Positions 35,983-64,000 of a stretch of DNA of 64,000 nucleotides are shown here, one piece after another (position 1 is the first letter of the stretch; the number at the start of each line of letters is the position of its first letter). Below the pieces are notes generated by a model. It did no database searches. It was not told the DNA's origin and saw only the letters and a list, made by a program, of their open reading frames with translations. Origin of the DNA: the human T2T-CHM13v2.0 reference genome, Homo sapiens. The DNA lies in the NCBI RefSeq assembly GCF_009914755.1, contig NC_060931.1; one strand, given 5' to 3'. Both the position numbers and the translations under genes were made by a program.

Positions 35983-35983
<1 letters not shown>

Positions 35984-36030
<47 letters not shown>
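35984..36030 (+). repeat. (TG)n microsatellite
   Basis: Direct reading, about 22 units. Confidence 0.95.
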
Positions 36031-36032
<2 letters not shown>

Positions 36033-39067: not shown

Positions 39068-39185
39068 CTGGTTTACCATGCATTGCAATTGTTAGCATAT
39101 ACAGCCCTTGGTATTTTAATTATGAGACTAAAACTCTTCTTGACACCACACGTGTGTTATGGCATCACTGATCTGCTCAAGACAG
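39068..39185 (+). pseudogene. DPY19L1-like exon E (118 nt; 2-nt frameshift deletion near 39151)
   Basis: ctttcag|CTG...CAG|gtaaca; LVYHALQLLAYTALGILIMRLKLFLTPH, then the MASLICSRQ motif continues in another frame. Confidence 0.92.
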
Positions 39186-40118: not shown

Positions 40119-40196
40119 ATAGGTTGATGCAAAAGTAATTGCGGGTTTTGGCATTAAAATAGCAAAACCTGCAATTGCTTTTTCACCAACCTAATA
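40119..40196 (+). mobile_element. MADE1 palindromic MITE; miR-548-type hairpin
   Basis: taggttgatgcaaaagtaattgcgggttttg-gcattaaaatag-caaaacctgcaattgctttttcaccaaccta forms a near-perfect inverted repeat. Confidence 0.88.
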
Positions 40197-40641
40197 GAAA
40201 GTGTCACCCAGGGCAGGTTTTGCAAGTGTGGGGTTCCTGCTGGTCACACAGGACCTCGCATTCAGAATGACCCTGAACTTGGTTGAATGTTTGCTGCTGC
40301 TGTTTTGAACGTCTTAATACTTTTTTAACAAGAGACCCCACATTTTTGTTTTGCATTGGGCCTTGTAAATTGCATAGGTGGTTGTGGCTTTACTTGAATC
40401 TGGGAGTAGAGAAAGCAGGTTGAGAAAAGAGCTTCCTACATTGTGTTCCACTTATATGAGGCTGATGGTAGAATTCTTTTGATCTCAAAGATTATTATTT
40501 TGGGGCTTTTTCTTTAGGATAATTAATCCTTTATTTGGGACTCTAGCAGAGGCCACATTCTTCTCTGGGAAGAAGTTTTGCATGACAGATGCATACTACT
40601 TTATACTAACAATTACCGATGTATTCTTAATTTGGTTTCAG

Positions 40642-40813
40642 CTATTTGGATGGCTCTTTTGCAAAGTACATCCTGGTGCTGTTGTTTTTGCTATATTAGC
40701 AGCAATGTCAATACCAGGTTCAGCAAATCTGCAAACCCAGTGGAATACTGTAGGGGAGTTCAGCAACTTGCCACAAGAATTTATAGAATGGATCAAATAT
40801 AGTACTAAACCAG
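40642..40813 (+). pseudogene. DPY19L1-like exon F (172 nt)
   Basis: tttcag|CTA...CCA G|gtaaaa; LFGWLFCKVHPGAVVFAILAAMSIPGSANLQTQWNTVGEFSNLPQEFIEWIKYSTKP (ORF 40582..40896); one Glu codon missing versus the recalled PQEELIEW. Confidence 0.92.
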
Positions 40814-41440
40814 GTAAAAAAAAAAAAGTCATATTATTTAACTGTTTTTCCCACAATTTTATATACCACTGCAAACTCCAAACTCTTAAACCCTAGTTAC
40901 TTCCACTGATCTCACTCTTTCTAAGCAATGTTGCTTTTAGAATATCTAAAACAAAGGAGATATCAATCCTGTTTAAATGGTTTGCATGGGAAATGTTATA
41001 CATATGTTCTTAGTAATTTATTCTGCCACTTTTTATAGATTTTAATTTTTTCAAAATTTATTCACAGTCATAAATGCCACATTTAAAATAATTTTACTGT
41101 GCTTATTTTTTTAATGAATTTTTAATATTAGTCCTTCACATTCCTTCTTGAAATAAACTCATGGAATGTGGTATTTTATTCATGTGTGGAAAGGGAGACT
41201 TCGTTGTCATCTGAGTATCAAATGATTGAATACTAAATCATCTTCCAGAACTCTTTGTTACTATAAAGCTTTCCTAGTCCATTTCATACTTCTTTTCTAG
41301 ATTCAGGAAAGATTTCTAAGATTTTTCTTTAAAGAAAGAAATCTTTAATGATGAGATGATGAAGCTCTATTTTCCAAGGAAAATAGTTTACCCAGGCCTG
41401 GCTGCCAACTGCTACTTTATCAGCCATCTGACTTCATTCT

Positions 41441-43611
<2,171 letters not shown>

Positions 43612-43762
43612 TGACTTCATTCTAGTTCTGCCATTGAATCTTGAAGTCATGAACCTGCTGGGCCTCCACTCTGCTACCTGTGAAATAATTGATTTACACT
43701 TGAAGGAGACCCCTTCTCACCCTCACTGAGTGTCTTCCTGAGACATTCCTCTTGACTTCCAG

Positions 43763-43862
43763 ATGCAATGTTTGCAGGTGCCACGCCCAGGATGGCAAGT
43801 GTTAAGCTCTCTGTGCTTCAGCCCATTGTGAATCATCCACATTATGAAGATGCAGGCTTGAG
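43763..43862 (+). pseudogene. DPY19L1-like exon G (100 nt), donor destroyed
   Basis: ttccag|AT GCA...TTG AG|atcaaa; (D)AMFAGATPRMASVKLSVLQPIVNHPHYEDAGL(R), with the conserved NHPHYED motif; the intron starts AT, not GT. Confidence 0.9.
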
Positions 43863-44994
43863 ATCAAACCTTCCATGCAAACAGACAGTGAGTGGAGGAC
43901 ACCAGCAAAGTAATGAGGAATGTTCCAAAAGGATATGATGAACTGAGGTTTATCAAGTCGGGGAGCAGAAGGCTGAAATAAGACTGCTAAGCTCTAAACA
44001 AATCCTTTAAGTCTTCACAGGGCAGGAAAGCGACAACTTTGGGGGCTATCTTCTCTAGCAGGCAGAAAAAAGAAGTAATACTGTAGCACTTTCCCACAGG
44101 TTAACAGGGCTCTAAAATGTCCAAGTCCTTTTCATCCTGTAACTCCCTGAAGAGTTTAGCTTAGAGTGTTTAGTAAGGTTTTCTCATAGGTGATTTTTCT
44201 TGAGTTTGGAGAAGTCATTTGAAATATAATCCCATTCAAAGAGGAGTTTATTCTGGTTTTCACCAGTATAGCCTGTTAGAATGATCTTGGGTGTTTTCTT
44301 TATTTTTAGATTTTTTTGAGACTTTAAAAAATAATTTAGAGATGTGTTGTCTAAATTATTTTTTTAAAAAGATTAAATTTTTCATGCAGTTTCTAAGGCA
44401 GGTGAAGCTATTCATTTTCTAAGTGATTAGATGAATCTTATTAGCATCTTCTTTTGCATAACAATGGCATGTACATTTACAAATAAGATTTTTCATTAAA
44501 AAATCAATCTCATCAAGCTAATTTCCAGACCAATTTTGTTAAATAAGTTTAGTATTTCTAAAATCTAGAAAAAAAATGAAGAACCACTTAATGTGAATTA
44601 TTGTTGATATCAAAGTTGGGACTGTTGCAGCTTCAGAGTAGTCCTGTAGTTGTATTTCTTGTAGTTCATCCCTGTTCACACACAGGGTACCTTACTCTTA
44701 TATGTGATAGAGTAGTGAAGAATTTAAGACAAATAAATAAGTGAACAAACACAAAGAGACCAAGTTTGGGAATGTAGGGGTGTGTTAAAGGTCACCCTCT
44801 TCTCCACAACTTGTCCTCCTCCTGCCTTCTGCTTTTGACCTCACTGATGCCCCTTCGCAGGAACTTCCATGGGGAATTTCCTCCTGACTGGATTCTTCTT
44901 CATTGTCTTCTAGTCTAATTCAGTGCTTTCTTCCAAATGTGTTATTGTATCATTTTAATCTTGAAATTTTGTTCCCAATTATTTTTCTTTAAAG

Positions 44995-45118
44995 TGCCAG
45001 AACAAAAATAGTATACTCAATGTATAGTCAGAAAGCAGCTGAAGAAGTGAAGCGAGAACTGATAGTTAAAAGTGAACTATTACATTCTAGAAAAGTCATG
45101 GTGTGTAAGAAGATCCAA
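44995..45118 (+). pseudogene. DPY19L1-like exon H (124 nt; 2-nt frameshift deletion near 45064)
   Basis: tttaaag|T GCC AGA...TCC AA|gtgagt; ARTKIVYSMYSQKAAEEVKRELI, then LKVNYYILEKSWCVRRS in a shifted frame. Confidence 0.9.
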
Positions 45119-45239
45119 GTGAGTATCAACACAGTTAACATTTTATAATCATAAGACACGAAGGTTAATTCAAGCACATGGCACATGCTTTGCTGGTGGC
45201 GGGGGTGTGTATATAACATAAAGTATACGTGGAAAAAAC

Positions 45240-45454
45240 TTTTTTTTTTTTAAATAGGCTCTCTGTTGCCCAGGCTGGAGTGCAGTGGCATAATCTAAGC
45301 TCACTGCAGCCTCCGCCTAATTTTTGTATTTTTAGTGGAGATGGGGTTTTGCCATGTTGTCCCAGGCTGGTCTCAAACTCCTGGCCTCAAGTGCTACTCC
45401 TGCCTTGGCCTCCCGAAGTGCTGGGACTACAGGCGTGAGCCACCATGCCTGGCC
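45240..45454 (-). mobile_element. Alu with internal deletion
   Basis: ctgcagcctccgcc joins directly to taatttttgtatttttag. Confidence 0.85.
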
Positions 45455-48198
45455 TGAAAAAACCTTCTTGATAATGATTTGGAGACTTTCTTTTCTAGTC
45501 TTTATAAATATCTTTTTTTAAAATAATGGTTTGTATGTGCATACTACCTTAAAGAGATTTTATTGGAACTAGTTGATAATCTCCCAAATTGTTCATATTT
45601 GCTTTTGATGTTTTTAAAGAAACTTTTATTTAAAGTTGGATGTATTTTCTTTCAAAAGACTTCCAGGGTCTGAAACCAAGTAATGGGGAGTCTCTTTTGG
45701 TGAAGTCAGGCAGCTGAGCACCAGGGGTCACATTATCCTTACTGGGTCTCTGTGCTACACCATGTCCTGTCGATGGATGGGATACCCTGTCAGCAAAAAC
45801 TCAGAATGAAACTTTTCTTTCCTGGTGTTTCACATCTTACTTGAATGGGAAAATGACTCTACTGTGACCCACATTCTCTTGGGTTTATAGTTTTTAAGTT
45901 TCTATTTCCAAAGAGATGTTTACTAAGCTGAGTATAGCTCCAAGTGACAGTAAGATCTTCAAAGCAGATGTGAATCTAAAGCTATCTAGAAATGTGGCAC
46001 GTAAGTGACTGGACACCAGGTGACAGTAGCCTGCTTTTAAAGTACCAAAACATTCACTTCATGAAGAGCACAGTACAGGAACAATTTTATCAGAAATAAA
46101 CACTATTTTATGGAATAATAATATTTTTAAAATTCTTACTACTCTGTAACTAAACAAAAGTGTTCAAGAGATTGCTATATTTGTGGCTTGATCATACTTG
46201 CCCACCATATATTTCAATGACACATATGGTATTAAGACAACATTGTTAAATACTGAGTCGTGAGTGAAAAATAGTTCTGTGACATAGTATCTACAGCTTT
46301 GCTCATAAGGCAACTAAAATAATTGTCGATTATAAAATGATTTTCCTATGAATGTGTGCTATGTGGTTTGAATTCAGTCAGGATTTATAGAAAATGTTAT
46401 TTTGTAATAATTTAGAAAATGCTTTAAGCGTTTGTGAATATATATGAAATTCATATACTCACCTTTCACATTGTTATATAAATTTAGGACAGAAAAGTTC
46501 TAAGCATCTCATGACGATCAGGAAATTATATGAAATGAATGATAGGCTGACATTTGCAATAGGAAGAACTCTGTTCTTAGCATAGCTTTCCACCAGAATG
46601 GGGATCTTCTTTATTTCTTTGGGCTTCACTCTCTTGAAACAACTGTAAGTTACTGGAACATAAAAATAATTTTCGTAACCTTTTTTCTCCAAGCTAACAA
46701 TGAGCCTTTGAGAGTTCATTTTTTGCCTAGACCCCTGCATAGAGTTTGAATATGTGAAAGTTGCAGAGGCTTTGTGCTGTAGAGTGTTGGGAGAGCTCCC
46801 TGGATTTGCATAGCTCTAACAGTCTCATGTTTGGGTAGGCAGAGCACTGTTTTACCCACACAAGAAGGGATATGAAGGCAAATTCAGGATGTATGGCAAT
46901 AAACTTTGCACACTAAACAAAATCAGCAGACATTGAACTGACTTCAAGTCACTTACAAGCACTCAGACTGAGAGTTGGGGTGCAGAAGAGGGTGTGCTGG
47001 ATTTCCCCATCTGGGCCTTGACTTGCCATTTATTGTGTCTGTCACAGCAGGAGTTGAGTGGGAGGAAGCTACGAAAGTGACTCTCTCATCTGTTTTCCCC
47101 ACTCATTAAAACAACACTCTCCATCTAGTACAAGATCTAAGCCAGGCTGATGACACACTGTCAGGAAACCTTGGACAGGTCCACTCTGCTTCAACCTTGA
47201 CACAAAACAAAAGCTGTGCTTTCTGTCCTGACAGGGAAGCAAATGGGGAGTTCAGATAGGAGAGGAAAGTGAAGAATGACTAATATTTATCTAGTGTTTA
47301 CATTTACAGTAGGAAGTTTCTTGACAAAGCTTTCTGCCAGGTTTGGGACCTTCCTTATTTCCTTGGCCTTCACTCTCCATTTCAGTTATGATCAGCCTGA
47401 AACCCCTGTAGATTGCTGGGACGTGAAAGTATGTCCGAATGGGGGAAGCAGATGGGGAACTCAGTTAGGAGAGGAAGGGGAAGAGGGACCAATATTTATC
47501 TAGTGCTTAATCTGTGCCTGGCAATTGGTGAGCACTATGTTTAAATGATCTCATTTACAAGTGGCTTAATTGTATGGCTTGATTATTCCTTAAATATTTG
47601 ACACTGAGTTTAAATATAAACATTCAAATCTATTTGCATGCAAGTTGTAGATTAGTTTTAAATTAACTACAGTTCTCTGCTTTCTTTTACTCCAATAATA
47701 GAGTTGACATAGAATACATGTATTTAGAAGGAAATTATTCAGATTTTCACTAATGCTATTTGCAGATGGCTGGCCTGGGGAAACCTTGGGAAACTCAGAT
47801 GAGGACTAAATAGTGTTGCACAAGGCAAACAGAGCTCCCCAAGACAGCTGTTTGCCCTCTCTTTTTCCTAAAAGCTGTTGAACTCAGGAAAACTGTGGGT
47901 CGTTCTCTACTTTCTGTGCGTCTCACTCTCTGCCACCGTGGGCCCTCAGTGTTGTAACAGTTCAGCCTTGACGTGTAGGAGAAAATTCCAAGGTAGAAAA
48001 CCCATGCCCAGCCATATGATCATAGGTGTTCCATGTCAGTAGAAACCAGTGTCAGCAAGGGTGTGCAAAAAGTGTGTACTTGAGCCCTCTTCATGGGAAC
48101 ACTCGCTGGCAAAACATTTCTAGGGGATAGTTTGATGAAGGGAAGGTAAGAAAAAAATTGTGCAGTCCTTTGGCAGAGTGATAATGTTGCCTCTAGAG

Positions 48199-48538
48199 CA
48201 GGGGTCTCCAAGCCCCCGGCCATGAACCAGTACTGGTCTGTGGCCTGTTAGGAACCCAGTCTCACAGCAGGAGGTGAGCGGAGGGTGAACAAGCATTACA
48301 GCCTGAGCTCTGGCTCCTGACAGATGAGTGGCAGCATTAGATTCTCATAGGAGTATGAACCCTATTGTGAACTGCACATGCGGGGGATCTAGGGTACGTG
48401 CTCCTTATGAGAATCTAATGCCTGATGATCTGAGGTGAAACACTTTCATCCCAAAACCATTGCCCCCACCCTCCAATCCATGGAAAAATTGCCTTGCACA
48501 AAACCAGTCCCTGGTGCAAAAAATGTTGGGGACTGCTG
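48199..48538 (+). mobile_element. MER1B (hAT-Charlie) DNA transposon
   Basis: cagggg...ctgctg ends, 340 bp, 8-bp TSD CTCTAGAG at 48191-48198 and 48539-48546. Confidence 0.9.
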
Positions 48539-48897
48539 CTCTAGAGGTTTAGCTTGCAGAAGGGAGCACCGCACAAGACTGCTTGTAGCTGCATTGCTTT
48601 ATAATGGCAAAATGGGAAAAAATTAAAGTATCTGTCTGTAAAGAACTCGTTAAATAATACATATGAGAACTAGCAGCTTTTAAAAACAATAGAGTAGGTC
48701 TTTATGCACTGAGATGGAAAAATAGTGCCACATTTTATTGTTCAGTATAGAGTCCCAGAATAATTCCATTTTTGTAAAAACAACTCAAGAGCATCTGTCA
48801 GGGTTTTCCAGAGGGACAGAATTAATAGGATAAACTTATATATATGATGTCTGTGTCTGTATGTGTATCTGACATTGGATAAGAAAAGATCCAGCAG

Positions 48898-49155
48898 ATA
48901 GCAAATATTGTATGTTCTCACTTATAAATGGGAACTAAGCTACCAGGATGCAAAGCAAAAGAATGATATGGACTATGGGGACTCCGGGGAAGCAAGGAGT
49001 GGGGTGAGGGATAAAAGACTACACACTGAGTATACTTGATACTGCTCTGGTGATGGGTGCACCAAAATCTCAGTAACTGCCATTGAAGAACTTATCCATG
49101 TAACCAAAAACCACCTGTTTTGCAAAAGCTATTGAAATAATTTTTTTTTTTAAAA
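48898..49155 (+). mobile_element. L1 3' end (L1PB/L1MA1-like), 5'-truncated
   Basis: atgttctcacttataaatgggaactaagc...gggtgcaccaaaatctcag...ctattgaaataa; flanked by aaaag(a/g)tccagcag. Confidence 0.75.
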
Positions 49156-49754
49156 AAGGTCCAGCAGGATATATGCTGGATTGTTTATAGAAGTCACCTC
49201 TGAGAAATGCTATTGGAGATGATGGTGACTTTCATTTCTTAAAATGTATGTAGGTCTATATTTGGTACTTTTATAATGACTGATTACTTATAAATTAAAT
49301 ATGTTATTTAAAAAGGGAAAATGATGTACATCCCTGCTACAGTGTTTGCCTCATGGTGGAGAGTGAGGAAGGGACTGCTACTAAACATAAGAGGGACTTG
49401 TTGGGAATTTTTTTTCTCTTATTTAGAAATAAAACTAAAAAGGGAAGCAATTATGACAAAACATGAGCAGTTGTCAATTCTCTATAATTTTCCCATATGT
49501 TTTTCTGTTTTTTAAAATTCCTCAAAAGGTAGATAGCAGTATCCAACAGTTCTATCTATAAAACTGTTCTTGATTTAAAATAAATGGTACTGTTATTTTG
49601 AAGGACTTATTTAGGCAAATGTCATATGATGCCAATTTTACTTATTCTATTCTTTATATATATTGCTTTTGAGATTTAATTATGTATTTAGCTAAGATGT
49701 ATGTCCAACACTACCAGAATTTCTTTAAATTGATTCATTCTAGAATATCAACTG

Positions 49755-50097
49755 TCCAGTTTAAGATGTTTTGACCTACTGATTTTTTTACTTTATGACA
49801 GTGTTAAAGCCATATGCATTCAGTAGAAAGCATACTTCAAATACCCATACAACCATTCTGTTTTTCAGTGTCAGTACAGCATTCAATAAATTACATGAGA
49901 TGTTCAACATTTTGTTATAAAACAGCATTTGTATTAGATGATTTTGTCAAACTGTAAGCTAATACAAGTGTTCCTAGCATGTTTAAGGTAGGCTAGGCTA
50001 AGCCGTGATGTTGGGTAGATTAGGTGTATTAAATGCATTTTCAACTTATGATGGGTTTATTGGAACATACCCCATTGTAAGTTGAGGAGCATCTATA
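49755..50097. mobile_element. Tigger4-like DNA transposon remnant
   Basis: ccccattgtaagttgaggagcatct terminal motif; gtaggctaggctaagc internal motif. Confidence 0.7.
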
Positions 50098-50161
50098 CAA
50101 TTAATGCAACTTGCCTGTGAATTAAGCATATTTGTTCTTTATAATTTTTTTAAATCAATAT

Positions 50162-50620
50162 TGTCAGGCCTCTGAGCCCAAGCTAAGCCATCACATCCCC
50201 TGTGACCTGCACTTATACATCCAGATGGCCTGAAGTAACTGAAGAATCACAAAAGAAGTGATACTTAAATGGCCTGTTCCTGCCTTAACTGATGACATTC
50301 CACCACAAAAGAAGTGAAAATGGCCGGTCCTTGCCTTAACTGATGACATTACCTTGTGAAATTCCTTCTCCTGGCTCATCCTGGCTCAAAAAGCTCCCCT
50401 ACTGAGCACCTTGTGACCCCTCACTCCGGCCTGCCAGAGAACAACCCCCCTTTGACTGTAATTTTCCTTTACCTACCAAAATCTTAGAAAATGGCCCCAC
50501 CCCATCTCCCTTTGCTGACTCTCTTTTCAGACTCAGCCCACCTGCACCCAGGTGAAATAAACAGCCTTGTTGCTCACACAAAGCCTGTTTGGTGGTCTCT
50601 TCACACAGATGCGAGTAAAA
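50162..50620 (+). promoter_or_regulatory. 5' LTR7 of provirus #1 (459 bp)
   Basis: tgtcaggcctctgagcccaagc...gcgagtaaaa; two ACAAAAGA motifs (50249, 50305); TATA position reads TAGAAAA; AATAAA at 50556-50561. Confidence 0.9.
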
Positions 50621-50622
50621 TT

Positions 50623-50640
50623 TGGTGCCATGACTCGGAT
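50623..50640 (+). other. tRNA-His primer binding site
   Basis: TGGTGCCATGACTCGGAT, one mismatch to the canonical TGGTGCCGTGACTCGGAT. Confidence 0.9.
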
Positions 50641-53600
50641 TGGGGGACCTCCCTTAGGAGATCAATCCCCTATCCTCCTGCTCTTTGCTCCATGAGAAAG
50701 ATCGACCTACGACCTCAGGTCCTCAGACTGACCAGCCCAAGGAACATTTCACCAATTTTAAATCGGGTAAGCGGCCTCTCTTTACTCTCTTCTCCAACCT
50801 CTCTCACTATCCCTCAACCTCTTTCTCCTTTCAATCTTGGCACCACACTTAAATCTCTCCCTTCTCTTAATTTCAGTTCCTTTCCTTTTCTGGTAGAGAC
50901 AAAGGTGAAGCGTTTTATCTGTGAACCCAAAACTCCGGCGCCGGTCACAGAATCAGGAAGAGTCTTCCCTTGGTGTTTAACCACATGGGGATGCCTACAT
51001 GATTATTCACCCATGTTTCAGAGGTGTCTGACCACGGAGGGATGCCTGTCTTGGTCCTTCACCCTTAGCGGCAAGTACCACTTTTTGGGGGGCAAGAACC
51101 CCCCGACCCCTTCCCTCCATGTCTCTACCTCTTCTCCACTTTCCTGGGGGCAAGCATCCCCCCACCCCTTCTCTCTGTGTCTCTACCCTCTATTTTCTCT
51201 GGACTTGCCTCCTTCACTATAGGTAAACTTCCACCCTCCATTCTCCTTCTCCCTTAGCCTGTGTTCTCAAAGACTTAATACCTCTTCAACTCACATGTGA
51301 CCTAAAACCTAAATGCCTTATTTTCTTCTGCAATGCCACTTGACCCCAATACAAACTCGACAGTGGTTCCAAATAGCCAGAAAATGGCACTTTCGATTTT
51401 TCCATCCTACAAGATCTAAATAATCCTTGTCGTAAAATGGGCAAACAGTCTGAGATGCCTGACGTCCAGGCATTCTTTTACACATCGGTCCCTCCCTAGT
51501 CTCTGTTCCCAATGCAACTTGTCCCAAATCTTCCTTCTTTCCCTCCCACCTGTCCCCTCAGTCCCAACCCCAAGCGTCGCTGAGTCTTTCTTCTTTCCAA
51601 TCTTCCTTTTCTATAGACCCATCTGACCTCTCCCCTCCTCCCCAGGCTGCTCCTCGCCAGGCTGAGCTAGGTCCCAATTCTTCCTCAGCCTCCGCTCCCC
51701 TACCCTATAATCCTTTTATCACCTCCCCTCCTCACACCCGGTCGGGCTTACAGTTTCCTTCCGCAACAAGCCCTCCCGCACCTGCCCAGCAATTTCCTCT
51801 TAAAAAGGTGGCTGGAGCTAAAGGCATAGTCAAGGTTAATGCTCCTTCTTCTTTATCCCAAATCAGAGAGCGTTAGGCTCTTTTTCACCAAATAAAAAAC
51901 CCAGCCCAGTTCATGGCTGCTTGGCAGCAACCCTGAGACGCTTTACAGCCCTAGACCCTAAAAGGTCAAAAGGCTGTCTTATTCTCAATATACATTTTAT
52001 TACCCAATTTGCTCCCGACATTAAATAAAACTCCAAAAATTAAATTCCAGCCCTCAAACCCCATAACAGGACTTAACTAACCTCGCCTTCAAGGTGTACA
52101 ATAATAAAGTGGAGGCAGCCAAGTAGCAATGTATTTCTGAGTTGCAATTCCTTGCCTCCACTGTGAGACAAATCCCAGCCATATCTCCAGCACACAAGAA
52201 CTTCCAAATGCCTGGACCACAGCTGCCAGGGGTTCCTCCAGAATCTCCTCCCCAAGCCCTGGAAATCTGGCCACTGGGCCAAGGAATGCCCATGGCCCAG
52301 GATTCTTCCTAAGCTGTGTCCCATCTGTTCAGGACCCCACTGAAAATCGGACTGTTCAACTCACCTGGCAGCCACTTCCAGAGCCCCTGGAACTCTGGCC
52401 CAAGGCTCTCTGACACCTTCCCAGACCTTCTTGGCTTAGCAGCTGAAGACTGACACTGCCCGATCGCCTCAGAAGCCTATAGGACCTTCACAGATGCTCT
52501 GGGTAACCCTCACAGTGGAGGGTAAGTCTGTCCCCTTCTTAATCAATACAGAGGCTACCCACTGCACATTACCTTTTTTTCAAGGGCCTATTTCCCTTAC
52601 CTCCATAACTGTTGTGGGTATTGACAGCCAGGCTTCTAAACCTCTTAAAATTCCCCAACTCTGGTGCCAACTTAGACAATATGCTTTTAAGCACTCCTTT
52701 TTAGTTTTCCCCACCTGCCCAGTTCCCTTGTTAGGCCAAGACACTTTAACTAAATTATCTTCTTCCCTGACTATTCCTGGGCTACAGCCACACCTCATTG
52801 CTGCCTTTTCCCCCAGTTCAAAGCCTCCTTCACATCCTCCCCTTATATCTCCCCACCTTAACCCACAAGTATAGGACACCTCTACTCCCTCCTTAGCGAC
52901 CGATCATGCACCCCTTACCATCCCATTAAAACCTAATCACCCTTACCCCGCTCAATGCCAATATCCCATCCCACAGCATGCTTTAAAAGGATTAAAGTCT
53001 GTTATCACTCACCTGCTACAGCATGGCCTTTTAAAGCCTATAAACTCCCCTTACGATTCCCCCATTTTACCTGTCCTAAAACCAGACAAGGCTTACAGGT
53101 TAGTTCAGGATCTGCACCTTATCAACCAAATTGTTTTGCCTATCCACACCGTGGTGCCCAACACATATACTCTCTGCCTCAATACCTCCCTCCACAACCC
53201 ATTATTCTGTTCTGGATCTCAAACATGCTTTCTTTACTATTCGTTTGCACCCTTCATCCCAGCCTCTCTTCGCTTTCACTTGGACTGACCCTGACACCCA
53301 TCAGGTTCAGCAAATTACCTGGGCTATACTGCCACAAGGCCTCACAGACAGCCCCTATTACTTCAGTCAAGCCCAAATTTCTTCCTCATCAGTTACCTAT
53401 CTTGGCTTCTCATAAAAACACATGTGCCCTCCCTGCCGATCATGTCCACCTGATCTCTTAAAACCCAGCACTTTCTACAAAACAACAATTCCTTTCCTTC
53501 CTAGGCATGGTTGGATACTTTCAACTTTAGATGCCTGGTTTTGCCATTCTAAAACCATTTTATAAACTCACAAAAGGAAACCTAGCTGACCCCATAGATC

Positions 53601-55474
53601 CTAAATCCTTTCCCCACTCCTTTCCGTTCCTTGAAGACAGCTTTAGAGACTGCCCCCACTCTAGCTCTCCCTGACTCATCCCAACCCTTTTCATTACACA
53701 CTGCTGAAGTGCAGGGCTGTGCAGTCAGAATTCTTACACAAGGACCAGGATGGCATCCTGTAGCCTTTTTGTCCAAACAACTTGACCTTATTGTTTTAAG
53801 CTGGCCATTATGTCTCCATGCAGTGGCTGCTGCCGCTCTAATACTTTTAAAGGCCCTTAAAATCACAAACTATGCTCAACTCACTCTCTACAGCTCTCAT
53901 AATTTCCAAAATCTATTTTCTTCCTCACACCTGACGCATATACTTTCTGCTCCCTGGCTCCTTCAGCTGTACTCACTCTTTGCTGTGTCTCCCACAATTA
54001 CCATTGTTCCTGGCCCGGACTTCAATCCAGCCTCCCACATTATTCCTGATACCACACCTGACCCTCATGACTGCATCTCTCTGATCCACCTGACGTTCAC
54101 CCCATTTCCCCACATTTCCTTCTTCCCTGTTTCTCACCCTGATCACACTTGGTTTATTGATGGCAGTTCCACCAGGCCTAATTGCCACACACCAGCAAAG
54201 GCAGGCTATGCTGTAGCACAAGCCACTAGCCCGCCTCTTAAAACCTCTCATTTCCTTTCCATTGTAGAAAACTGTCCTCAAGGAAATAACTTCTCAGTGT
54301 TCCATCTGCTATTCTACTACTCCTCAAGGATTATTCAGGCCCCCTCCCTTCCCTACACATCAAGCTTAAGGATTTGCCCCCACCCAGGACTGGCAAATTA
54401 GCTTTACTCAACATGCCCTGAGTCACAAAAACTAAAATACCTCTTAGTCTAAGTAGACACTTTCACTAGATAGGTAGAGGCCTTTCCTACAGGGTCTGAG
54501 AAGGCCACCACAGACATTTCTTCCCTTCTGTCAGACATAATTCCTCAGTTTAGCCTTCCCACCTCTATACAGTCTGATAACAGACCAGCCTTTATTAGTC
54601 AAATCAGCCAAGCAGTTTTTCAGACTCTTAGTATTCAGTGAAACCTTTATATCCCTTACAGTCCTCAGTCTTCAGGAAAAGTAGAACAGACTAAAGGTCT
54701 TTTAAAAACACACCTTACCAAGCTCAGCCACCAACTTAAAAAGGAATAGACAATACTTTTACCACTTTCCCTTCTCAGAATTCAGGCCTGTCCTCAGAAT
54801 GCTACAAAGTACAGCCCATTTGAGCTCCCATATAGATGCTCCTTTTTATTAGGCCCCAGTATCATTCCAGACACCAGACCAACTTGGACTGTGCCCCAAA
54901 AAACTTGTCATCCCTACTGTCTTCTGTCTAGTCATACTCCTATTCACTGTTCTCAGCTACTCATACGTGCCCTGCTCTTGTTTACACTGCCAGTTTACAC
55001 TGTTTCTCCAAGCCATCACAGCTGATATCTCCTGGTGCTAGCCCCAAACCGCCACTCTTAACTCTTATAGTAAATAAATAATCTTTGCAGGCAAGGCTAT
55101 GCTGAACCTCCTTAGGCACTCTCTAATTAGATGTCCTAGGTCCTCCCAATTCTTAGTCCTTTAATACCTGTTTTTCTCCTTGTCTTATTCCATTTAGTTT
55201 TTCAATTCATACAAAACTGTATCCAGGTCATCACCAATAATTCTAAATGACAAATGTTTCTTCTAACAACCCCACAATATCACCCCTTACCACAAAATCT
55301 TCCTTCAGCTTAATCTCTCCCACTCTAGGTTCCCACGCCACCCCTAATCCCGCTCAAAGAAGCCCTGAGAAACATCGCCCATTATCTCTCCATACCACCC
55401 CCAAAAATTTTTGCCGTCCCAACACTTTACCACTATTTCATTTTATTTTTCTTATTAATATAAGAAGACAGGAA

Positions 55475-55875
55475 TGTCAGGTCTCTGAGCCCAAGCTAAG
55501 CCATCGTATCCCCTGTGACCTGCATGTACACATCCAGATGGTGGGTTCCTGCCTTAACTGATGACATTCCACCACAAAAGAAGTGAAAATGGCCTGTTCC
55601 TGCCTTAACTGATGACATCGTCTTGTGAAATTCCTTCTCCTGGCTCATCCTGGCTCAAAAGCTCCCCAACTGAGTACCTTGTGACCCCCACTCCTGCCCA
55701 CCGGAGAAAAACCCCCCTTTTTCCTTTACCTACCCCAATCCTACAGAAGGGCCCCACCCCATCTCCCTTCGCTGACTCTCTTTTCGGACTCAGCCCGCCT
55801 GCACCCAGGTGATTAAAAGCTTTATTGCTCACACAAAGCCTGTTTGTTGGTCTCTTCACATGGACGCGCATGAAA
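55475..55875 (+). promoter_or_regulatory. 3' LTR7 of provirus #1 (401 bp, different subtype from its 5' LTR)
   Basis: tgtcaggtctctgag...gcgcatgaaa; polyA signal ATTAAA at 55812-55817. Confidence 0.9.
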
Positions 55876-56015
55876 GCTACATGACAGGATTGTTTAAAAA
55901 CTAAAGTAATTTAAGGGGAAAAAAGGAAATGAGATCAGGAATGTAAGAAGTGCCCTGCTTTCTCTGCAGTTATATAATGCATACTGATTTTTAACATGTA
56001 CATTCATTTTTCTAG

Positions 56016-56172
56016 GCCTGGTTGCAGTATGCCTGAAATTTGGGATGTAGAAGATCCTGCCAATGCTGGGAAAACTCCCTTATGTAACCTCTTGGTGAAG
56101 GATTCCAAACCTCACTTCACCACTGTATTCCAGAACAGTGTTTACAAAGTCCTAGAAGTTGTAAAAGAATGA
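56016..56172 (+). pseudogene. DPY19L1-like terminal exon I, coding part (open, TGA at 56170-56172)
   Basis: ttttctag|G CCT GGT TGC...; PGCSMPEIWDVEDPANAGKTPLCNLLVKDSKPHFTTVFQNSVYKVLEVVKE*. Confidence 0.93.
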
Positions 56173-56343
56173 CTGCTACATGACCTGCTGCCTACGGAGA
56201 ACTACATCTCTAATGGTTTTAATGTTTTGCTAAGTCATGTGTTGTTCATATCCCAAAAACTTTTATAGGTAACTGTTTTCAAATAGAAAATGTTTTATTT
56301 GGTCAATTTGAATGTCATTCTAATTATAAAAATGACTCATACC

Positions 56344-56784
56344 TTTCATGCGCGTCCGTGTGAAGAGACCACCAAACAGGCTTTGTGTGAGCAACATGGC
56401 TGTTTATTTCACCTGGGTGCAGGTGGGCTGAGTCCGAAAAGACAGTCAGCATAGGGAGATAAGGGTGGGGCCATTTTATAGGATTTGGGAAGGTAATGGA
56501 AAATTACAATCAAAGGGGGTTGTTCTCTGGTGGGCAGGGGTGGATCTCACAAAGTACATTCTCAAGTGTGGGGAGAATTACAAAGAACCTTCTTAAGGGT
56601 GGGGGAGATTACAAAGTACATTGATCAGTTAGGGTGGGGCAGGAACAAATCACAATGGTGGAATGTCATCAGTTAAGGCTGTTTTTACTTCTTTTGTGGA
56701 TCTTCAGTTACTTTAGGCCATCTGAATGTATACGTGCAAGTCACAGGGGATGCGATGGCCTGGCCTGGGCTCAGAGGCCTGACA
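56344..56784 (-). promoter_or_regulatory. 3' LTR of provirus #2
   Basis: Reverse complement of tgtcaggcctctgagcccaggccaggcc...gcatgaaa; AATAAA on - strand at 56403-56408. Confidence 0.92.
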
Positions 56785-59700
56785 TTCCTGCCTTCTTATA
56801 TTAATAAGACAAATAAAACAAAATAGTGTTGAAGTGTTGGGGCGGCGAAAATTTTTGGGGGGTGGTATGGAGAGAGAATGGGTGATGTTTCTCAGGGCTG
56901 CTTCAAGCGGGATTAGGGGTGGCGTGGGAACCTAGAGTGGGAGAGATTAAGCTGAAGGGAGGTCTTGTGGTAAGGGGTGATATTGTGGGGATGTTAGAAG
57001 AAACATTTGTCGTATAGAATGATTGGTGATGGCCTGGATACGGTTTTGGATGAATTGAGAGAGCTTAATGTGTAGGGAAGGGAGGGGGCCTGAATAATCC
57101 CTGAGGAGTAGTAGAATAGCAGATGGAACACTGAGAAGTTATTTCCTTGAGGATAGATTTCCACGATGGAAAGGAAATGAGAGGTTCTAAGAGGTGGGAT
57201 AGTGGCTTGTGCTATAGCATAGCCTGCCTTTGCTGGTGTGTGGCGATTAGGCCTGGTGGAACTGCCATCAATAAATCAAGCGTGATCAGGGTGAGGAACA
57301 GGAAAGAAGGAAATATGGGGAAATGGGGTGAATGTCAGGTGGATCAGAGAGATACAGTCATGGGGGTCAGGTGTGGTATCAGGAATAATGTGGGAGGCCA
57401 GATTGAAGTCCGGGCCAGGAACAATGGTAATTGTGGGACTTAACAAAGAGTGAGTACAGCTGAAGGAGCTGGGGAGCAGAAAGTATATGCGTCAGGTATA
57501 AGGAAGAAAAAGATTTCGGAAGTTATGAGAAATGTAGAGTGAGTTGAGCATAGTTTGTGATTTTTAGGGCCTCTAGAAGTATTAAAGCATCGGCAGCCGC
57601 TGCATGCAGACATGAGGGCTAGGCTAAAACAGTAAGGTCAAGTTGTTTGGACAGAAACGCTGCAGGGTGTGGTCCTGGCTCTTGTGTAAGAATTCTGACC
57701 ATGCTAACCATGCCTAGGAAGGAAAGGAGTTGTTGTTTTGTAAGGGATTGAGGTTTGGGAGATTAATCGGACACGATCAGCAGGGAGAGCATGTGCGTTT
57801 TTATGAGAATTATGCTGAGATAGGTAACAGATGAGGATGAAATTTGGGCTTGACTGAAGTAATGGGGGCTGTCTGTGAAGCCTTGCGGCAGTACAGCCCA
57901 GGTAATTTGCTGAGCCTAATGGGTGTCAGGGTCAGTCTAAGTGAAGGCAAAGAGAGGCTGGGATGAAGGGTGCAAAGAAATAGTAAAGAAAGCATGTTTG
58001 AGATCCAGAACAGAATAATGGGTAATAGAGGGAGGTATTGAGGATAGGAGAATATATGGGTTGGGCACCATGGGGTGGATAGGCAAAACAATTTGGTTGA
58101 TAAGGCGCAGATCCTGAACTAACTTGTAAGCCTTGTCTGGTTTTAGGACAGGTAAAATGGGGGAATGGTAAGGAGAGTTTATAGGTTTTAGAAGCCCATA
58201 CTGTAGCAGGCGAGTGATAACAGGCTTTAATCCTTTTAAAGCATGCTGTGGGATGGGATATTGGCGTTGAGCAGGGTAAGGGTGATTCGATTTTAACGGG
58301 ATGGTAATGGGCATGTGATCGGTTGCCAGGGAAGGAGTAGAGATGTCCCATATTTGTGGGTTAAGGTGGGGGGATATGAGAGGAAGATGCAAAGGAGGCT
58401 TTGGGCTGGGGAGAAGGGTGGCAATGAGATGCAGCTGTAGTCCAGGAATAGTCAGGGAAGCAGATAATTTGGTTAAAATATCTCGGCCTAATAAGGGAAC
58501 TGGGCAGGTGGGGATAACTAAAAAAGAGTGCATAAGAGTGTTGTCCAAGTTGGCACCAGAGTGGGGGAGTTTTCAGGGGTTTTGAAGCTTGGCCGTCAAT
58601 ACCCACAACAGTTATGGAGGCAAGGGAAACAGGCCCTTGAAAAGAAGGTAATGTGGAGTGGGTAGCCTCCGTATTGATTAAGAAGGGGACGGACTTATCT
58701 TCCACTGTGAGAGTTACCCAAAGCTCGGCGTCCGTGATGGTCTACAGGGCTTCTGAGGCGATCGGGCAGCATGAGTCTTCAGCCGCTAAGCCGAGAAGGA
58801 GTCAGTCAGAGAGCCTTGGGCCAGAGTTCCAGGGGCTCCGGGAGTGGCTGCCAGGTGAGTTGAACAGTCCGGTTTCCAGTGGGGTCCCACACAGATGGGA
58901 CACGGCTTAGGAGGAATCCTGGGCTGCAGGCATTCCTTGGCCTGGTGGTCAGATTTCTGGCACTTGTAGCAAGCTCCTGGGGGAGGAGGTTCTGGAGGAA
59001 CGCCTGGCCGCTGCGGTTCAGGCGTTTGGAAGTTCTTGTGTGCTGGAGATGTGGCTGGGATTTGTCTCACAGTGGAGGCAAGGAATTGCAACTTTTTTCT
59101 ATTATTGTACACCTTGAACGCGAGGTTAATTAAATCCTATTGTGGGGTTTGAGGGCCGGAATTTAATTTTTGGAGTTTTATTTAATGTCGGGAGCAGATT
59201 GGGTAATAAAATGTATATTGAGAATAAGATGGCCTTTTGACCTTTTAGTTTCTAGGGCTGTAAAGCATCTCAGGGTTGCTGCTGAACGAGCCATGAACTG
59301 GGCTGGGTTTTTATATTTGATGAAAAAGAGCCTAAACGCTTCTGATTTGGGATAAAGAAAAAGGAGCATGAACCTTGACTATGCCTTTGGCTCCAGCCAC
59401 CTTTTTAAGAGTAAATTGCTGGGCAGGTGGGGGAGGGCTAGTCACAGAACGAAACTGTAAGCCGGACCAGGTGTGAGGAGGGGAGGCGATAAAAAGATTA
59501 CAGGGTGGAGGAGCGGAGGCTGAGGAAGAATTGGGACCTAGCTTGGACTGGCGAGGAGGGGAGAGGTCAGATGGGTCTGTAGAAAAGGAAGATTAGAAAC
59601 ACTTGGTGATGCTTGGGGTTGGGACTGAGGGGACAGGCGGGAGGGAAAGAAGGAAGATTTGGGACGAGTTGCACTGGGCACAGAGACTAGGAAGGGACTG

Positions 59701-60096
59701 ATGTGTAAAAGAATGCCTGGATGTCAGGCACCTCAGACCATTTGACCCTTTTACGACAAGGATTATTTAGATCTTGTAGGATGGAAAAATTCAAAGTGCC
59801 ATTTTCCGGCTATTTGGAACTACTGTCGAGTTTGTATTGGGGCCAAGCGGTGTTGCAGAAGAAAATAAGGTGTTTAGGTTTTAGGTGAGGTGTAAGTTGA
59901 AGAGGTTTTAAGTTCTTGAGCACACAGGCTAAGGGAGAAGAGGGAGGAATGGAGGGTGGAAGGTTGCCTATATTGAAGGAAGCAAACCCAGAGAAAAGAG
60001 AACGTAGAGACATGAAGGGAAGGGGTTTGGGGGTTCTTTCCCCCTAGAAAAGCGGGACTTGCCACTAAGGGTGAAGGAGAAGGGGTTGAGGGGTAC

Positions 60097-60230
60097 TTGC
60101 CCCTGCCCCAGGAAAGCAGAGAAGGGGTAGAGACAAGGAGAGAAGGGGTTGGGGTACTTGGCCATTCCCCAGGAAAGCAGAGAAGGGGTAGAGACAAGGA
60201 GAGAAGGGGTTGGGGTAATTGCCCTTTCCC
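60097..60230. repeat. ~60-bp tandem duplication in the HERV-H leader
   Basis: ccccaggaaagcagagaaggggtagagacaaggagagaaggggttggggta occurs twice. Confidence 0.8.
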
Positions 60231-60680
60231 CAGAAAAGCGGGACTTGCCGCTAAGGGTGAAGGACCAAGGCAGGCGTCCCTGCGTGGTCTGACACCCTTG
60301 AAACGTGGGTGTATAATCAGAGAGGCGTCCCTGCAATGATTAAACACCAAGGGAAGACTGCCTTCCCAGTCCGTGACCGGCGCCGGAGTTTTGGGTCCAC
60401 GGATAAAACGTGTCTCTTTTGTCTCTACCAGAAAATGAAAGGAATTGAAATTAAGAGAAGGGAGAGATTGAAGTGTAGCACCAAGATTGAAAGGAGAAAG
60501 AGGTTGACGGATAGTGAAGGAAGTTGGAGAAGAGAGTAAAGAGAGGCCGCTTACCGGATTTGAAATTGGTGAGATGTTTCTTGGGCTGGTCTGTCTGAGG
60601 ACCTGAGGTCGTAGGTGGATCTTTCTCATGGAGCAAAGAGCAGAAGGAGGGGGGATTGATCTCCCAAGGGAGGTCCCCCG

Positions 60681-60698
60681 ATCCAAGTCACGGCACCA
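60681..60698 (-). other. tRNA-His primer binding site
   Basis: Reverse complement reads TGGTGCCGTGACTTGGAT. Confidence 0.9.
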
Positions 60699-60700
60699 AA

Positions 60701-61141
60701 TTTCATGCGCGTCCATGTGAAGAGACCACCAAACAGGCTTTGTGTGAGCAACATGGCTGTTTATTTCACCTGGGTGCAGGTGGGCTGAGTCCGAAAAGAG
60801 AGTCAGCATAGGGAGATAAGGGTGGGGCCGTTTTATAGGACTTGGGAAGGTAATGGAAAATTACAATCAAAGGGGGTTGTTCTCTGGTGGGCAGGGGTGG
60901 ATCTCACAAAGTACATTCTCAAGTGTGGGGAGAATTACAAAGAACCTTCTTAAGGGTGGGGGAGATTACAAAGTACATTGATCAGTTAGGGTGGGGCAGG
61001 AACAAATCACAATGGTGGAATGTCATCAGTTAAGGCTGTTTTTACTTCTTTTGTGGATCTTCAGTTACTTTAGGCCATATGGATGTATATGTGCAAGTCA
61101 CAGGGGATGCGATGGCCTGGCCTGGGCTCAGAGGCCTGACA
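60701..61141 (-). promoter_or_regulatory. 5' LTR (LTR7Y-like) of provirus #2, intact TATA
   Basis: TATAAAA on - strand at 60831-60837; GGGTGGGG (KLF-type) boxes; splice donor CCG|GTAAGC downstream at 60549-60554. Confidence 0.88.
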
Positions 61142-61146
61142 ATACC

Positions 61147-63660
61147 TTTATCAATTGGTTACTATTTCAATGCCCCCTTTAAAATTTGCTATGCAAATGA
61201 GTATATGCTTGTACTTGACTTCCATATTTGTGCTAAAGTGAGCAAAGTTATCTATATAAAGAAAACACAATGAGTTGTGACAAGGATGACGTGAAAATAC
61301 AGGACAATTCTGACAATGTAGGGGCTGATTTTATAGTGTAAGAACTATTAATGCCCCTTGCTTCTTTTTTCTGCCTCTTGCTCTTGTCTTTTGGACATTT
61401 CAGTGATTGTAAGTTCTTCGGTCATGTCAGCCCCTGTCATCAACTTGAGTTACAGTAGATGGGGCAGACATGGAGTGTTTGCTTTGCGGAACTATCTGTC
61501 TGTTTTGCTTCCTTGTGCTCTTTTTGTTCTCTGTTCTCCTGTTAATGAAGCTTTTCCTGCCCATTATTAATCCAAACTCTTGGGCCTTGTGGTTAGGAAA
61601 TTCCCTTAACTTCCAGCCATGTGGCATTATCATGTCTCTTTCTCTCTCTCGCTCTCTCTCCTCTCCTCCTCCCCCCAACATTTTCTGTCAAATAAGTACT
61701 GTTTACTCATTTAGTTGCTTATCAAATACTTATTCTTGGTTTTAAAAAAATTATTGGTAACTGTACTTTTCTTATTTTTTAGCATTATTCAAATGTTTAC
61801 ATTTTAATACTTTAAACCACTTTAAAATTTTTTCATGTTTAATTGTAGTTTTAAGAAAAACTATTTTGAACAACCCCAAATATAGTGCATCTAGAAACTA
61901 ATGTATATTTGAGTAGACATCACTTATAGTGGAACAGTAGACTGTAGTACATGGTAATTTTCCTTTTACTCTTAAGATACAATAAAACATGACTAATTTT
62001 CCTGTCAAAAATGTAAAGAATAACAATAAATGAAGTTTTTATATTTTACTTTTAAGATTGCCTGTCTTTACTAAGACAAAGCCTTAAGCCTTATGTTATA
62101 ATTTTGGTTCTAAAAATCATCATTTCAGTATGAGGAATGAGTATATTTCGTCCTCCTCTTTAGTTTTCTTCTTCCTATTTATTTTTATTTTGAGAAATTT
62201 CTACACCTTCTTTGAATTCCTTGTATGAATTTTTGTTTCCTAGAAGTTAATTTGTGTGAAATGAGATTCTTCAAAACGATGAAACCTCGTAGCTCTGAGA
62301 AAAGGTTTTAGGGTTTTAAATTCTAAGCAAACCATGACTATGGCTGACTGACTACACATTTAATTATACAGCTTCTCTTTCTTAACCACAGGCAGATTAA
62401 CCTCATTGTGGATTGTCCTTCAGACCTTAGTCCTCAGGCATGGTTTCTGGTGCCCATTCCTGGAAGCCGCTGTTCCCTTTCTACCTTCTTACCAGAGCCC
62501 AAGGGCAGGCCTGGTCTCGAGGAAGCAGCAGCTTGCTGACATGAGTCAGCTGCAAAGGCTGAGGAGTGTGCCCTCAGAGAAGCAGCGCCCCCCAGTCCTG
62601 CCCCAGTGCCCAGAGCCGCAGCTCCTAGGGATGCTCCTTCCCTGGAGGCGGCCCAGGAGAGGGACTCTGGCAGCGTTCTTCAGATTTGTGACCACTGTTT
62701 CTCATTTGCTGGTTGACTATTTTTATTTCTTAGGCTTTTGCTAGTTTTAGAAAATAGGAAAGCAGCCCGTGATTTGTGGATTAAAAGCAACATTTGAGCG
62801 ATGATGCACAACAGTCCAGGAAAATGGGCAGTGACACTTGAGGCTGAGGATGGGAGTCGACATGAGCAGGGAGAGGGAGGTGCGCGCTGCTTATCTGTGA
62901 TTGTTGCTCACCTGAGTGTGGCTGATTGTGTACATCCAGCAGCTACAATTTTTAAAAATTATATTTTTACATTTATTTTATATTTTTCTCACCCCCAGTA
63001 ATTTCCTTCCAAATAAGTTCACATGTAATAAGTAGAAATTCTGTACAGGAAAAAAGCATTAAAAATACTATTATAACTGCTTCATTTGCTGGGAACCATT
63101 ACAAGTAGTATAAATTAGCTTTTTCCAGAAGGATCCTCTTGTAGCAGGGTTTATGAATGTAACCCCCAGCAAAATGTGACTATATATTAGGAGAGCCAGT
63201 TTGGAGCAGAGGCCTGAAGGTCCCTGCTATGCAGCCGTGGCCACAGCTCACAGCACCAGTGCTGTGGAGCATCCACACCTTTGATGGCAATGCAGAGTGA
63301 TAGCAGGTTCCATAGGTGTGACAAAACAGCATTAAAGCTCAGTATTTTGCATATTTTTAGCATTTAAAAATATTTTTGCTTTAGTGTGAGGAAAGTAAGG
63401 ATGGGCAAAGAGGCGATCAAAATAGCTATTGCTATGACATTTTAGAAAACAAAGTTGGGGCCGTATTTCTTTAAAAAGATAAGCCTCTAAAAATGCTTGG
63501 CAAAAAAACTATAGTGTTAAAATAGGCCAGTGATATTAATGAGAAAATGAAAGTATATATCAGGAATAAAGTGATATTGCATAGGAGTATTGTATTTTTA
63601 TGAATTTTGTGCCAGTTGTTTACATGTACTATATATGTTAAATAAAAAAATCATGAAAAA
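61147..63660 (+). other. Remainder of the DPY19L1-derived 3'UTR
   Basis: Non-repetitive, mostly AT-rich sequence resuming after the ATACC TSD and ending at AATAAA signals; extent inferred. Confidence 0.6.
63641..63646 (+). terminator. Probable polyadenylation signal (alternative AATAAA at 63565-63570)
   Basis: AATAAA with upstream TGTA elements and a downstream GT/T-rich tract (gtttttcttgattgttatttt). Confidence 0.55.
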
Positions 63661-64000
63661 TGAGGGAAATGTTTTTCTTGATTGTTATTTTCATTTCCAC
63701 CTTGACTGTGATCAAGTTCGGCCTCGTTTTGTAGTCAGATAGCCATGAACTGGTTTGAGTCAGATGGCAGTCCTGAGAAGAGAGGGAGGGATCATAACAG
63801 TGGGGGTAGACTCTGGTCTTGTTGTTGGTAGTGGTAGGCACTGAGATTATCCGAACTTTTCCTGTATTTATGGTAGAGTCACTTACATTCCTTTATCCTT
63901 TTCATCAAGGGACACAGTAATTCATTCAAACTATATATTGGGAATAATTAAAGGGTTGCTAAAAGCTGCTTTAATGTATTTAAAAAATACGTTGGTATCA

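What the first reader, a model, noticed from the sequence alone, without database searches (positions are those of the whole stretch)
50162..61141. Terminal exon sandwiched between two convergent HERV-H proviruses, forming a ~5-kb inverted repeat
Seen: provirus #1 (+) ends at 55875 and provirus #2 (-) begins at 56344. The 468-bp spacer holds the last coding exon (acceptor 140 bp after LTR #1, stop 171 bp before LTR #2). Homologous gag/pol/leader segments face each other. Inference: read-through from either side gives a multi-kb intramolecular dsRNA with the exon in its loop (ADAR substrate, MDA5/PKR ligand or endo-siRNA source). The DNA is also a substrate for inversion of the exon by ectopic recombination. 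Two or three HERV-H hits within ~6 kb suggest a locus that is open in early embryo or germ line.
Basis: partly seen in the sequence, partly recalled or inferred. Interest (0 to 1): 0.7.

Follow-up and report, generated by a model that had tools for sequence, protein, structure and literature searches.

The report
Three viral insertions, one fused provirus
Two ancient retrovirus copies (HERV-H) face each other around the last exon of a dead gene duplicate; one of them is a hybrid that likely formed when two insertions only 300 bases apart recombined, and no evidence was found that the pair makes functional double-stranded RNA.

Summary
The anatomy is confirmed: HERV-H P1 (+, 50162-55875) and P2 (-, 56344-61141) face each other across 468 bp that hold a DPY19L1-type terminal exon. 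The arms pair over about 4.9 kb at only 84% identity; the longest perfect run is 53 bp. The exon belongs to the pseudogene DPY19L1P2, a partial segmental duplicate; the parent DPY19L1 lacks both proviruses. The RefSeq transcript splices out most of P1 and ends at P2's edge, so its mature RNA lacks the repeat. No sign of inversion or gene conversion between the arms was found.

New here: P1 is a hybrid. It has no target-site duplication, its LTRs differ by 9.7% plus 6 indels, 295 bp of host intron are missing, and its internal sequence switches lineage once, between 53524 and 53698. It most likely arose by recombination between two separate insertions 300 bp apart. With P2 (LTR7Y, intact duplication), that gives three HERV-H integrations within 763 bp of original host DNA. 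Other close HERV-H neighbours occur on chr3, chr13 and chr2.

Verdict: an unreported example of a known kind (recombinant provirus), with a testable hint of very local HERV-H insertion clustering. The dsRNA idea is possible but unsupported.

The parts
28814..64000 (+). Segmental duplicate of the 3' part of DPY19L1 (LOC124906663 / DPY19L1P2); continues beyond the window
   Evidence: Collinear with chr7:35.069-35.092 Mb (-) at 92-98% per block; 760 of 21,679 substitutions, 3.5%; 2-bp deletions in two exon copies
50162..50620 (+). P1 5' LTR, lineage A (7d1 in Carter's tree, 7up1 in their remask; three-block 7u-like layout by eye)
   Evidence: 91-94% identical to LTRs of four type-A copies; carries a motif found 64 times genome-wide
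50621..53524 (+). P1 internal left half (leader, gag, pro, 5' pol remnants), lineage A
   Evidence: 75 A / 18 B diagnostic sites; grouping with lineage B rejected, p-AU 2.5e-4, for 52200-53524
53525..53697 (+). Inferred crossover interval within pol
   Evidence: Best single split, permutation p 0.0005
53698..55474 (+). P1 internal right half, lineage B (7d)
   Evidence: 4 A / 56 B sites; groups with four 7d copies at 100/98; grouping with A rejected, p-AU 5e-8
55475..55875 (+). P1 3' LTR (7d type), poly(A) hexamer ATTAAA at 55812; no target-site duplication with the left flank; 295 host bases lost across P1
55876..56343 (+). 468-bp host spacer: intron end, terminal exon copy (acceptor 56016, stop 56170-56172), start of 3' UTR, TATAAA at 56325
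   Evidence: 97.7% identical to parent; coding exon with 10-bp margins 177 of 177 identical
56344..61141 (-). P2, LTR7Y HERV-H, single clean insertion, target-site duplication ATACC
   Evidence: LTRs 434 of 441 identical; flanks; listed LTR7Y 'full'; age 1-14 My across rates and intervals
50609..56346 (+). HERV-H-derived and terminal exons of RefSeq NR_132360.1 (50609-50766, 50877-51070, 52333-52521, 56016-56346)
   Evidence: Hub annotation; AG acceptors, GT donors and one GC donor seen in sequence

Best explanation
This is likely a neutral fossil of three separate HERV-H insertions into a DPY19L1 pseudogene copy, two of which likely recombined into the hybrid provirus P1, while the third (P2) lies in the opposite direction and makes the inverted repeat as a probable by-product. 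Steps: (1) shown: the 3' part of DPY19L1 was duplicated (3.5% divergence) and the parent has empty sites; (2) inferred: lineage-A and lineage-B proviruses integrated in the same direction 300 bp apart in the last intron; (3) inferred from four shown signs (no target-site duplication, discordant LTRs, 295 bp host loss, one lineage switch in pol): homologous recombination between them removed A's 3' part, the 295 bp and B's 5' part; (4) shown: a younger LTR7Y provirus integrated in reverse 463 bp further on; (5) from annotation: the pseudogene transcript splices through P1 and ends at P2's edge; (6) inferred: any duplex is limited to nascent or read-through RNA and has no selected role. Tolerance in a pseudogene likely let all three persist; a local integration bias likely helped.
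For: Parent lacks both elements. P1 flanks match 2 of 5 at the duplication position; 15 of 16 control proviruses match 4-5 of 5 and the 16th matches 5 of 5 after a 1-base shift. P1 LTRs differ by 9.7% with 6 indels against 2.2-6.2% in 14 of 16 controls. Diagnostic sites switch from 75A/18B to 4A/56B, p 0.0005; strict set 22A/4B to 0A/23B. Trees of the two halves disagree. Both outer LTR ends are intact and abut parent-homologous DNA, as expected of integrase-made ends. U3 and U5 of each LTR follow that end's lineage, which reverse-transcription recombination would not give. The lost 295 bp survive only in the parent. The likely precursor state exists elsewhere: a solo LTR with its own duplication 575 bp from a provirus on chr13, and a divergent element about 104 bp from one on chr3. 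No conversion between P1 and P2: 3 private shared sites against 0-8 for 6 unrelated copies.
Against: Only one genome was available, so no intermediate state was seen. Two controls (L021, L023) also scored 15.6% and 10.7% LTR divergence, apparently from truncated 5' LTRs. The left-half tree supports P1+A only weakly (46/79), and gag shows mixed A/B sites. The B panel was chosen by similarity to P1. Three insertions in 765 bp are improbable under uniform insertion (expected 0.0005 genome-wide), so an unexplained local bias is needed. Carter's tree and remask label both LTRs within the 7d1/7up1 range rather than as clearly distant subfamilies. Lack of function is not shown: no RNA data for P2 or embryos were seen.
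Confidence: 0.75

Rival explanations
1. One reading: read-through from the pseudogene, P1 or P2 yields a multi-kb hairpin RNA that is edited by ADAR or sensed by MDA5/PKR or diced, with biological effect.
For: Geometry is right; about 4.9 kb could pair at 84-88%; the inner 1.3 kb folds arm to arm in silico (334 of 401 nt, no shuffle control). The RefSeq end uses a weak TATAAA. LTR7Y as a subfamily is expressed at 8-cell, morula and epiblast stages (PMC8912925). A read-through mRNA would keep 541 nt of P1 exons, 471 of them matching P2.
Against: Annotated RNA ends at 56346. A plus-strand read-through meets 3 AATAAA and 3 ATTAAA in P2; a minus-strand one meets AATAAA at 56408, 56299 and 55826. 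Longest perfect duplex 53 bp; wild-type MDA5 is reported to need unedited or perfectly paired duplexes (PMC8208052). P1: RNA 0, KAP1 1, H3K9me3 1 in ESC, though the authors say these marks correlate poorly with activity. No paper on the locus.
Confidence: 0.12
2. P1 arose from one resident provirus (A) whose 3' half was replaced by an incoming lineage-B viral DNA: one end recombined by homology, the other was integrated 300 bp away, deleting the host bases. No second full insertion ever existed.
For: Gives the same four signs and explains closeness without a hotspot.
Against: P2 and the chr13 and chr3 neighbours show that ordinary two-ended insertions land this close. The mechanism is recalled from other retroelements, not shown for HERV-H.
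Confidence: 0.08
3. P1 is one insertion whose 3' half was gene-converted by a distant 7d copy, with an unrelated 295-bp deletion that removed the duplication.
For: LTR gene conversion is reported in humans (PMC4921805, search listing only). The top match to P1's 3' end lies 1.37 Mb away on chr7 at 96%; it could not be inspected.
Against: Needs a 2.2-kb tract and a separate deletion ending exactly at the LTR terminus.
Confidence: 0.05

Closest known systems
Recombinant proviruses with discordant LTRs and mismatched target-site duplications (Hughes and Coffin 2001, 2005, not read; described in PMC11379458 passages)
   Same: Mismatched duplications, LTRs of different lineage, crossover between two proviruses.
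   Different: Those cases are HERV-K type and join distant loci; here the partners lay 300 bp apart and only 295 bp of host DNA were lost, so the product passes for an ordinary provirus.
HERV-H-mediated non-allelic homologous recombination (Campbell 2014, PMC4195946 passages)
   Same: Directly oriented HERV-H pairs, internal crossover, deletion without long perfect identity.
   Different: Those are present-day large copy-number variants; this is an old, tiny event present in both CHM13 and (by coordinates) hg38.
Inverted Alu pairs as dsRNA sources (PMC8208052 passages)
   Same: Opposed repeats under 1 kb apart, imperfect pairing.
   Different: Arms are about 15 times longer, but one arm is intronic and the other lies past the annotated RNA end; no RNA evidence.
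Gammaretroviral integration hotspots (KoRV, PMC7910482; MLV integrase-BET tethering, PMC4027182)
   Same: Germline insertions closer together than chance.
   Different: Scale here is under 1 kb and beside earlier copies of the same family; the strict BET-binding motif was not found in HERV-H.

Membership tests
HERV-H provirus (P1, P2) | LTR7-family LTRs flanking gag/pro/pol remnants | tested here: met
   Carter supplement rows and sequences at matching places
HERV-H provirus (P1, P2) | Primer-binding site for tRNA-His | tested here: inconclusive
   Site present after each 5' LTR and shared with 557 genomic matches; the His assignment is recalled, not compared with a tRNA
Single-event provirus (P2) | 5-bp target-site duplication and near-identical LTRs | tested here: met
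   ATACC both sides; 434 of 441
Single-event provirus (P1) | 5-bp target-site duplication and near-identical LTRs | tested here: not met
   2 of 5; 9.7% plus 6 indels
Post-integration recombinant provirus (P1) | Mismatched duplications with rearranged flanks | tested here: met
   295 bp of parent sequence missing
Post-integration recombinant provirus (P1) | 5' and 3' parts from different lineages with a crossover | tested here: met
Post-integration recombinant provirus (P1) | Parental or reciprocal alleles observed | not testable with these tools
   No reciprocal product in this genome; no ape genomes or other haplotypes held
Inverted-repeat dsRNA locus | Both arms on one transcript | tested here: inconclusive
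   Not so in the annotated RNA (hub annotation); other isoforms unknown
Inverted-repeat dsRNA locus | Editing, dsRNA pull-down or small RNAs | not testable with these tools
   No RNA data available
Inversion mediated by inverted repeats | Flipped spacer or exchanged arms | tested here: not met
   Spacer collinear with parent; no conversion; one haplotype only
BET-tethered gammaretroviral integration | W-x7-PLK(I/L)R motif in the integrase tail | tested here: not met
   No strict match in 19 sequences scanned; the tail of the putative integrase frame in L049 has only a loose W...LKL resemblance

The most novel reading that the evidence does not exclude
HERV-H germline integrations preferentially landed within about 1 kb of earlier HERV-H LTRs, a self-reinforcing hotspot. 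Such neighbours then fused by recombination, so a fraction of apparently ordinary full-length HERV-H proviruses are hidden two-insertion hybrids with tiny host deletions, and opposed neighbours form multi-kb inverted repeats.
Probability: 0.3. Interest if true: 0.62.

Novelty: new member of a known kind. Interest (0 to 1): 0.4.

Why it matters
A hybrid like P1 is mis-dated by LTR divergence and mis-typed by subfamily catalogues; Carter's remask splits it into two truncated elements of different subfamily. If such hybrids and sub-kb neighbours are common, they record where HERV-H integrated in the ape germ line, which is otherwise hidden by selection, and this can be tested with existing assemblies. 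The locus is also a clear test site for whether kb-long imperfect HERV inverted repeats yield dsRNA, though nothing yet says it does.

Tried and rejected
Past inversion or conversion between P1 and P2: rejected (P2 closest to P1 in 1 of 71 windows; 3 private shared sites). Recombination during reverse transcription as P1's origin: rejected, since it would give two identical LTRs and a duplication. The 295 bp as an insertion into the parent: unlikely; no flanking duplication, and it has weak 74-79% matches elsewhere like an old repeat (MIR resemblance recalled). Strict BET-binding motif in HERV-H integrase: not found. Locus-specific literature: DPY19L1P2 appears in 3 papers, of which one names it as a duplicate and two were seen only as listings; 0 papers for HERVH 7p14.3, NR_132360 or LOC124906663; no locus hits in supplements of PMC6298018, PMC6629862, PMC9483895 (the hg19 numbers searched were estimated from a recalled offset, so these blanks are weak). 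No genome-wide count of tail-to-tail LTR pairs was obtained. The chr7:31.6 Mb copy and the chr2:34.80 Mb pair were not inspected.

Full report
Observation. The window holds two HERV-H elements tail to tail. P1 (+) runs 50162-55875 with LTRs of 459 and 401 bp; P2 (-) runs 56344-61141 with two 441-bp LTRs. The arms align over 4,958 columns (five collinear hits, one 78-column hit overlapping another) with 84.2% Watson-Crick pairs, 87.8% with G-U; 19 perfect runs reach 30 bp and the longest is 53 bp. The arms nearest the spacer are the worst (78.5%), and two stretches of P1 have no partner.

Host context. The spacer has one close match in the genome, the parent DPY19L1 at chr7:35.07 Mb (98%; 6 matches in all). 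The window from 28814 on is a collinear copy of the parent's 3' part, 3.5% diverged, about 15 My at a recalled rate of 0.12% per My. Carson 2006 (PMC1475853, passages) names DPY19L1P2 as a partial duplicate and places the mouse-syntenic copy at the parent locus. Two exon copies carry 2-bp deletions. The parent has neither provirus nor a solo LTR at these sites, so all insertions postdate the duplication and the exon is a pseudogene exon.

P2 is an ordinary insertion: ATACC on both sides, 7 differences in 441 between LTRs, 3-7 My by point estimate and 1-14 My with intervals over three recalled rates. Carter 2022 (PMC8912925; supplement rows, supplement 7, first part of Results, passages) lists it as full LTR7Y, a subfamily of the youngest wave.

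P1 is not. Its flanks match at 2 of 5 positions, 3 at best with shifts; of 16 control proviruses 12 match 5 of 5, three match 4 of 5 and one matches 5 of 5 after a one-base shift. Its LTRs differ at 39 of 401 columns with 6 indels; 14 of 16 controls differ by 2.2-6.2%, and the two higher values come from copies with truncated 5' LTRs. Against the parent, 295 bp of intron are missing exactly between the two intact LTR ends and are found nowhere else at high identity. The 5' LTR carries a motif seen 64 times in the genome, in 14 places as a pair 5-6.5 kb apart; the 3' LTR lacks it. I fetched 4 of those 14 (lineage A) and took the 4 full copies closest to the 3' LTR out of the 12 full copies (lineage B). 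At 153 internal sites that separate the groups, P1 follows A 75 to 18 left of 53524 and B 56 to 4 right of 53698 (permutation p 0.0005; strict set 22:4 and 0:23). In trees of 18 rows, 52200-53524 rejects P1+B (p-AU 2.5e-4; P1+A only 46/79) and 53698-55474 places P1 with B at 100/98 and rejects P1+A (p-AU 5e-8). Carter's remask lists P1 as two truncated elements, 7up1 and 7d1, while their tree calls the 5' LTR 7d1; the rows and passages I saw do not remark on this.

Mechanism. Template switching in a virion would give identical LTRs and a duplication; conversion would keep the flanks. The simplest account is two same-direction insertions 300 bp apart and a crossover in pol that removed about 6 kb, either on one chromosome or between two alleles; one genome cannot tell these apart. 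This is the class described for HERV-K-like proviruses (PMC11379458, passages, citing Hughes and Coffin, not read), and HERV-H pairs are known recombination substrates without long perfect identity (PMC4195946, passages). With P2 463 bp further, three integrations fall within 763 bp of original host DNA.

Is that chance? With 2,497 HERV-H elements (counts) spread evenly, about 1.5 pairs but 0.0005 triples within 765 bp are expected; a 30-fold regional enrichment would be needed to make a triple ordinary. Close neighbours do recur. Among 93 primer-site matches on chr1 and chr2 (of 557 genome-wide; only the first 100 were listed), 4 pairs lie within 20 kb against 0.35 expected; against the local 20-500 kb background p is 0.004, or 0.024 without a probable tandem array. 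Two of these pairs are convergent, and the one inspected is a nested antisense copy with 687 bp of inverted repeat, so opposed HERV-H pairs are not unique. Of the 12 full copies, two have another HERV-H LTR close upstream: a solo LTR with its own duplication 575 bp away on chr13, and a 75-78% divergent element about 104 bp away on chr3. That search scored only 22 of 2,710 candidates and may favour loci with extra matches, so this is a lead. KoRV insertions also cluster within 10 kb (PMC7910482, passages). Tethering to active LTR chromatin is one possible cause, but the strict MLV BET-binding motif (PMC4027182, passages) was not found in HERV-H.

RNA. RefSeq NR_132360.1 (hub annotation) splices from DPY19L1-type exons into three P1 exons and then to the terminal exon; the splice sites are present. 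It passes both P1 poly(A) hexamers inside introns and ends at 56346, about 16 nt after TATAAA, so the mature RNA has no inverted repeat. Nascent or read-through RNA could pair: the inner LTRs fold together in silico (no control), and the three P1 exons match P2 at 471 of 541 nt. Against this stand several poly(A) hexamers on either route, the imperfect duplex, and ESC calls for P1 of RNA 0, KAP1 1, H3K9me3 1, H3K27ac 1. No such calls for P2 were seen. Searches found no paper on dsRNA, editing or variation at this locus; subscription papers and bioRxiv supplements are not covered.

DNA stability. The spacer is in the parent's orientation, P2 is intact, and P1 shares no more private sites with P2 (3) than with six unrelated copies (0-8). 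hg38 coordinates give the same layout and near-equal lengths. Polymorphism could not be tested.

Verdict. Real anatomy, a different story from the one proposed: a pseudogene that took three HERV-H hits, two now fused. New member of a known kind; interest 0.4, carried mainly by the clustering lead.

Noticed in passing
window 41441-43604: 2.2-kb L1-like insertion (RT-like 354-aa frame, poly-T end, partly inverted relative to a similar element, flanking direct repeat) absent from the parent; it separates the LOC124906663 model from DPY19L1P2, which look like one split duplicate (L1 label recalled).
   Followed up: partly
window 28558-28814: The duplicate's left boundary falls exactly at the end of an Alu-like element, as in Alu-associated duplication junctions.
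   Followed up: partly
window 33617-33937 and 37463-37764: Two Alu-like insertions with flanking direct repeats, absent from the parent; the parent has about 820 bp starting with an Alu that the window lacks near 48832-48837.
   Followed up: partly
window 56006-56182: The terminal exon copy is 177 of 177 identical to the parent against a 3.5% background; chance, conversion or leftover constraint.
   Followed up: no
G000:C2:34.70 Mb (L048) and 34.80-34.81 Mb: Four HERV-H primer sites within 110 kb: a nested antisense copy with inverted repeats of 687 bp (87%) and 319 bp (94%), and a second convergent pair 16 kb apart that was not inspected.
   Followed up: partly
G000:C7:31604560-31605237: Best match to P1's 3' end (96%), 1.37 Mb away and in reverse orientation; sibling copy or donor.
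   Followed up: no
window 50162-50620 and 63 other matches: A small LTR7 sub-lineage with a three-block layout that fits neither the 7d1 nor the 7u1 published pattern cleanly; possibly an unnamed intermediate.
   Followed up: partly
L013 and L022: These copies group with lineage A in the left pol segment but carry other LTR types, so mosaic HERV-H genomes are common and LTR type does not fix internal lineage.
   Followed up: no
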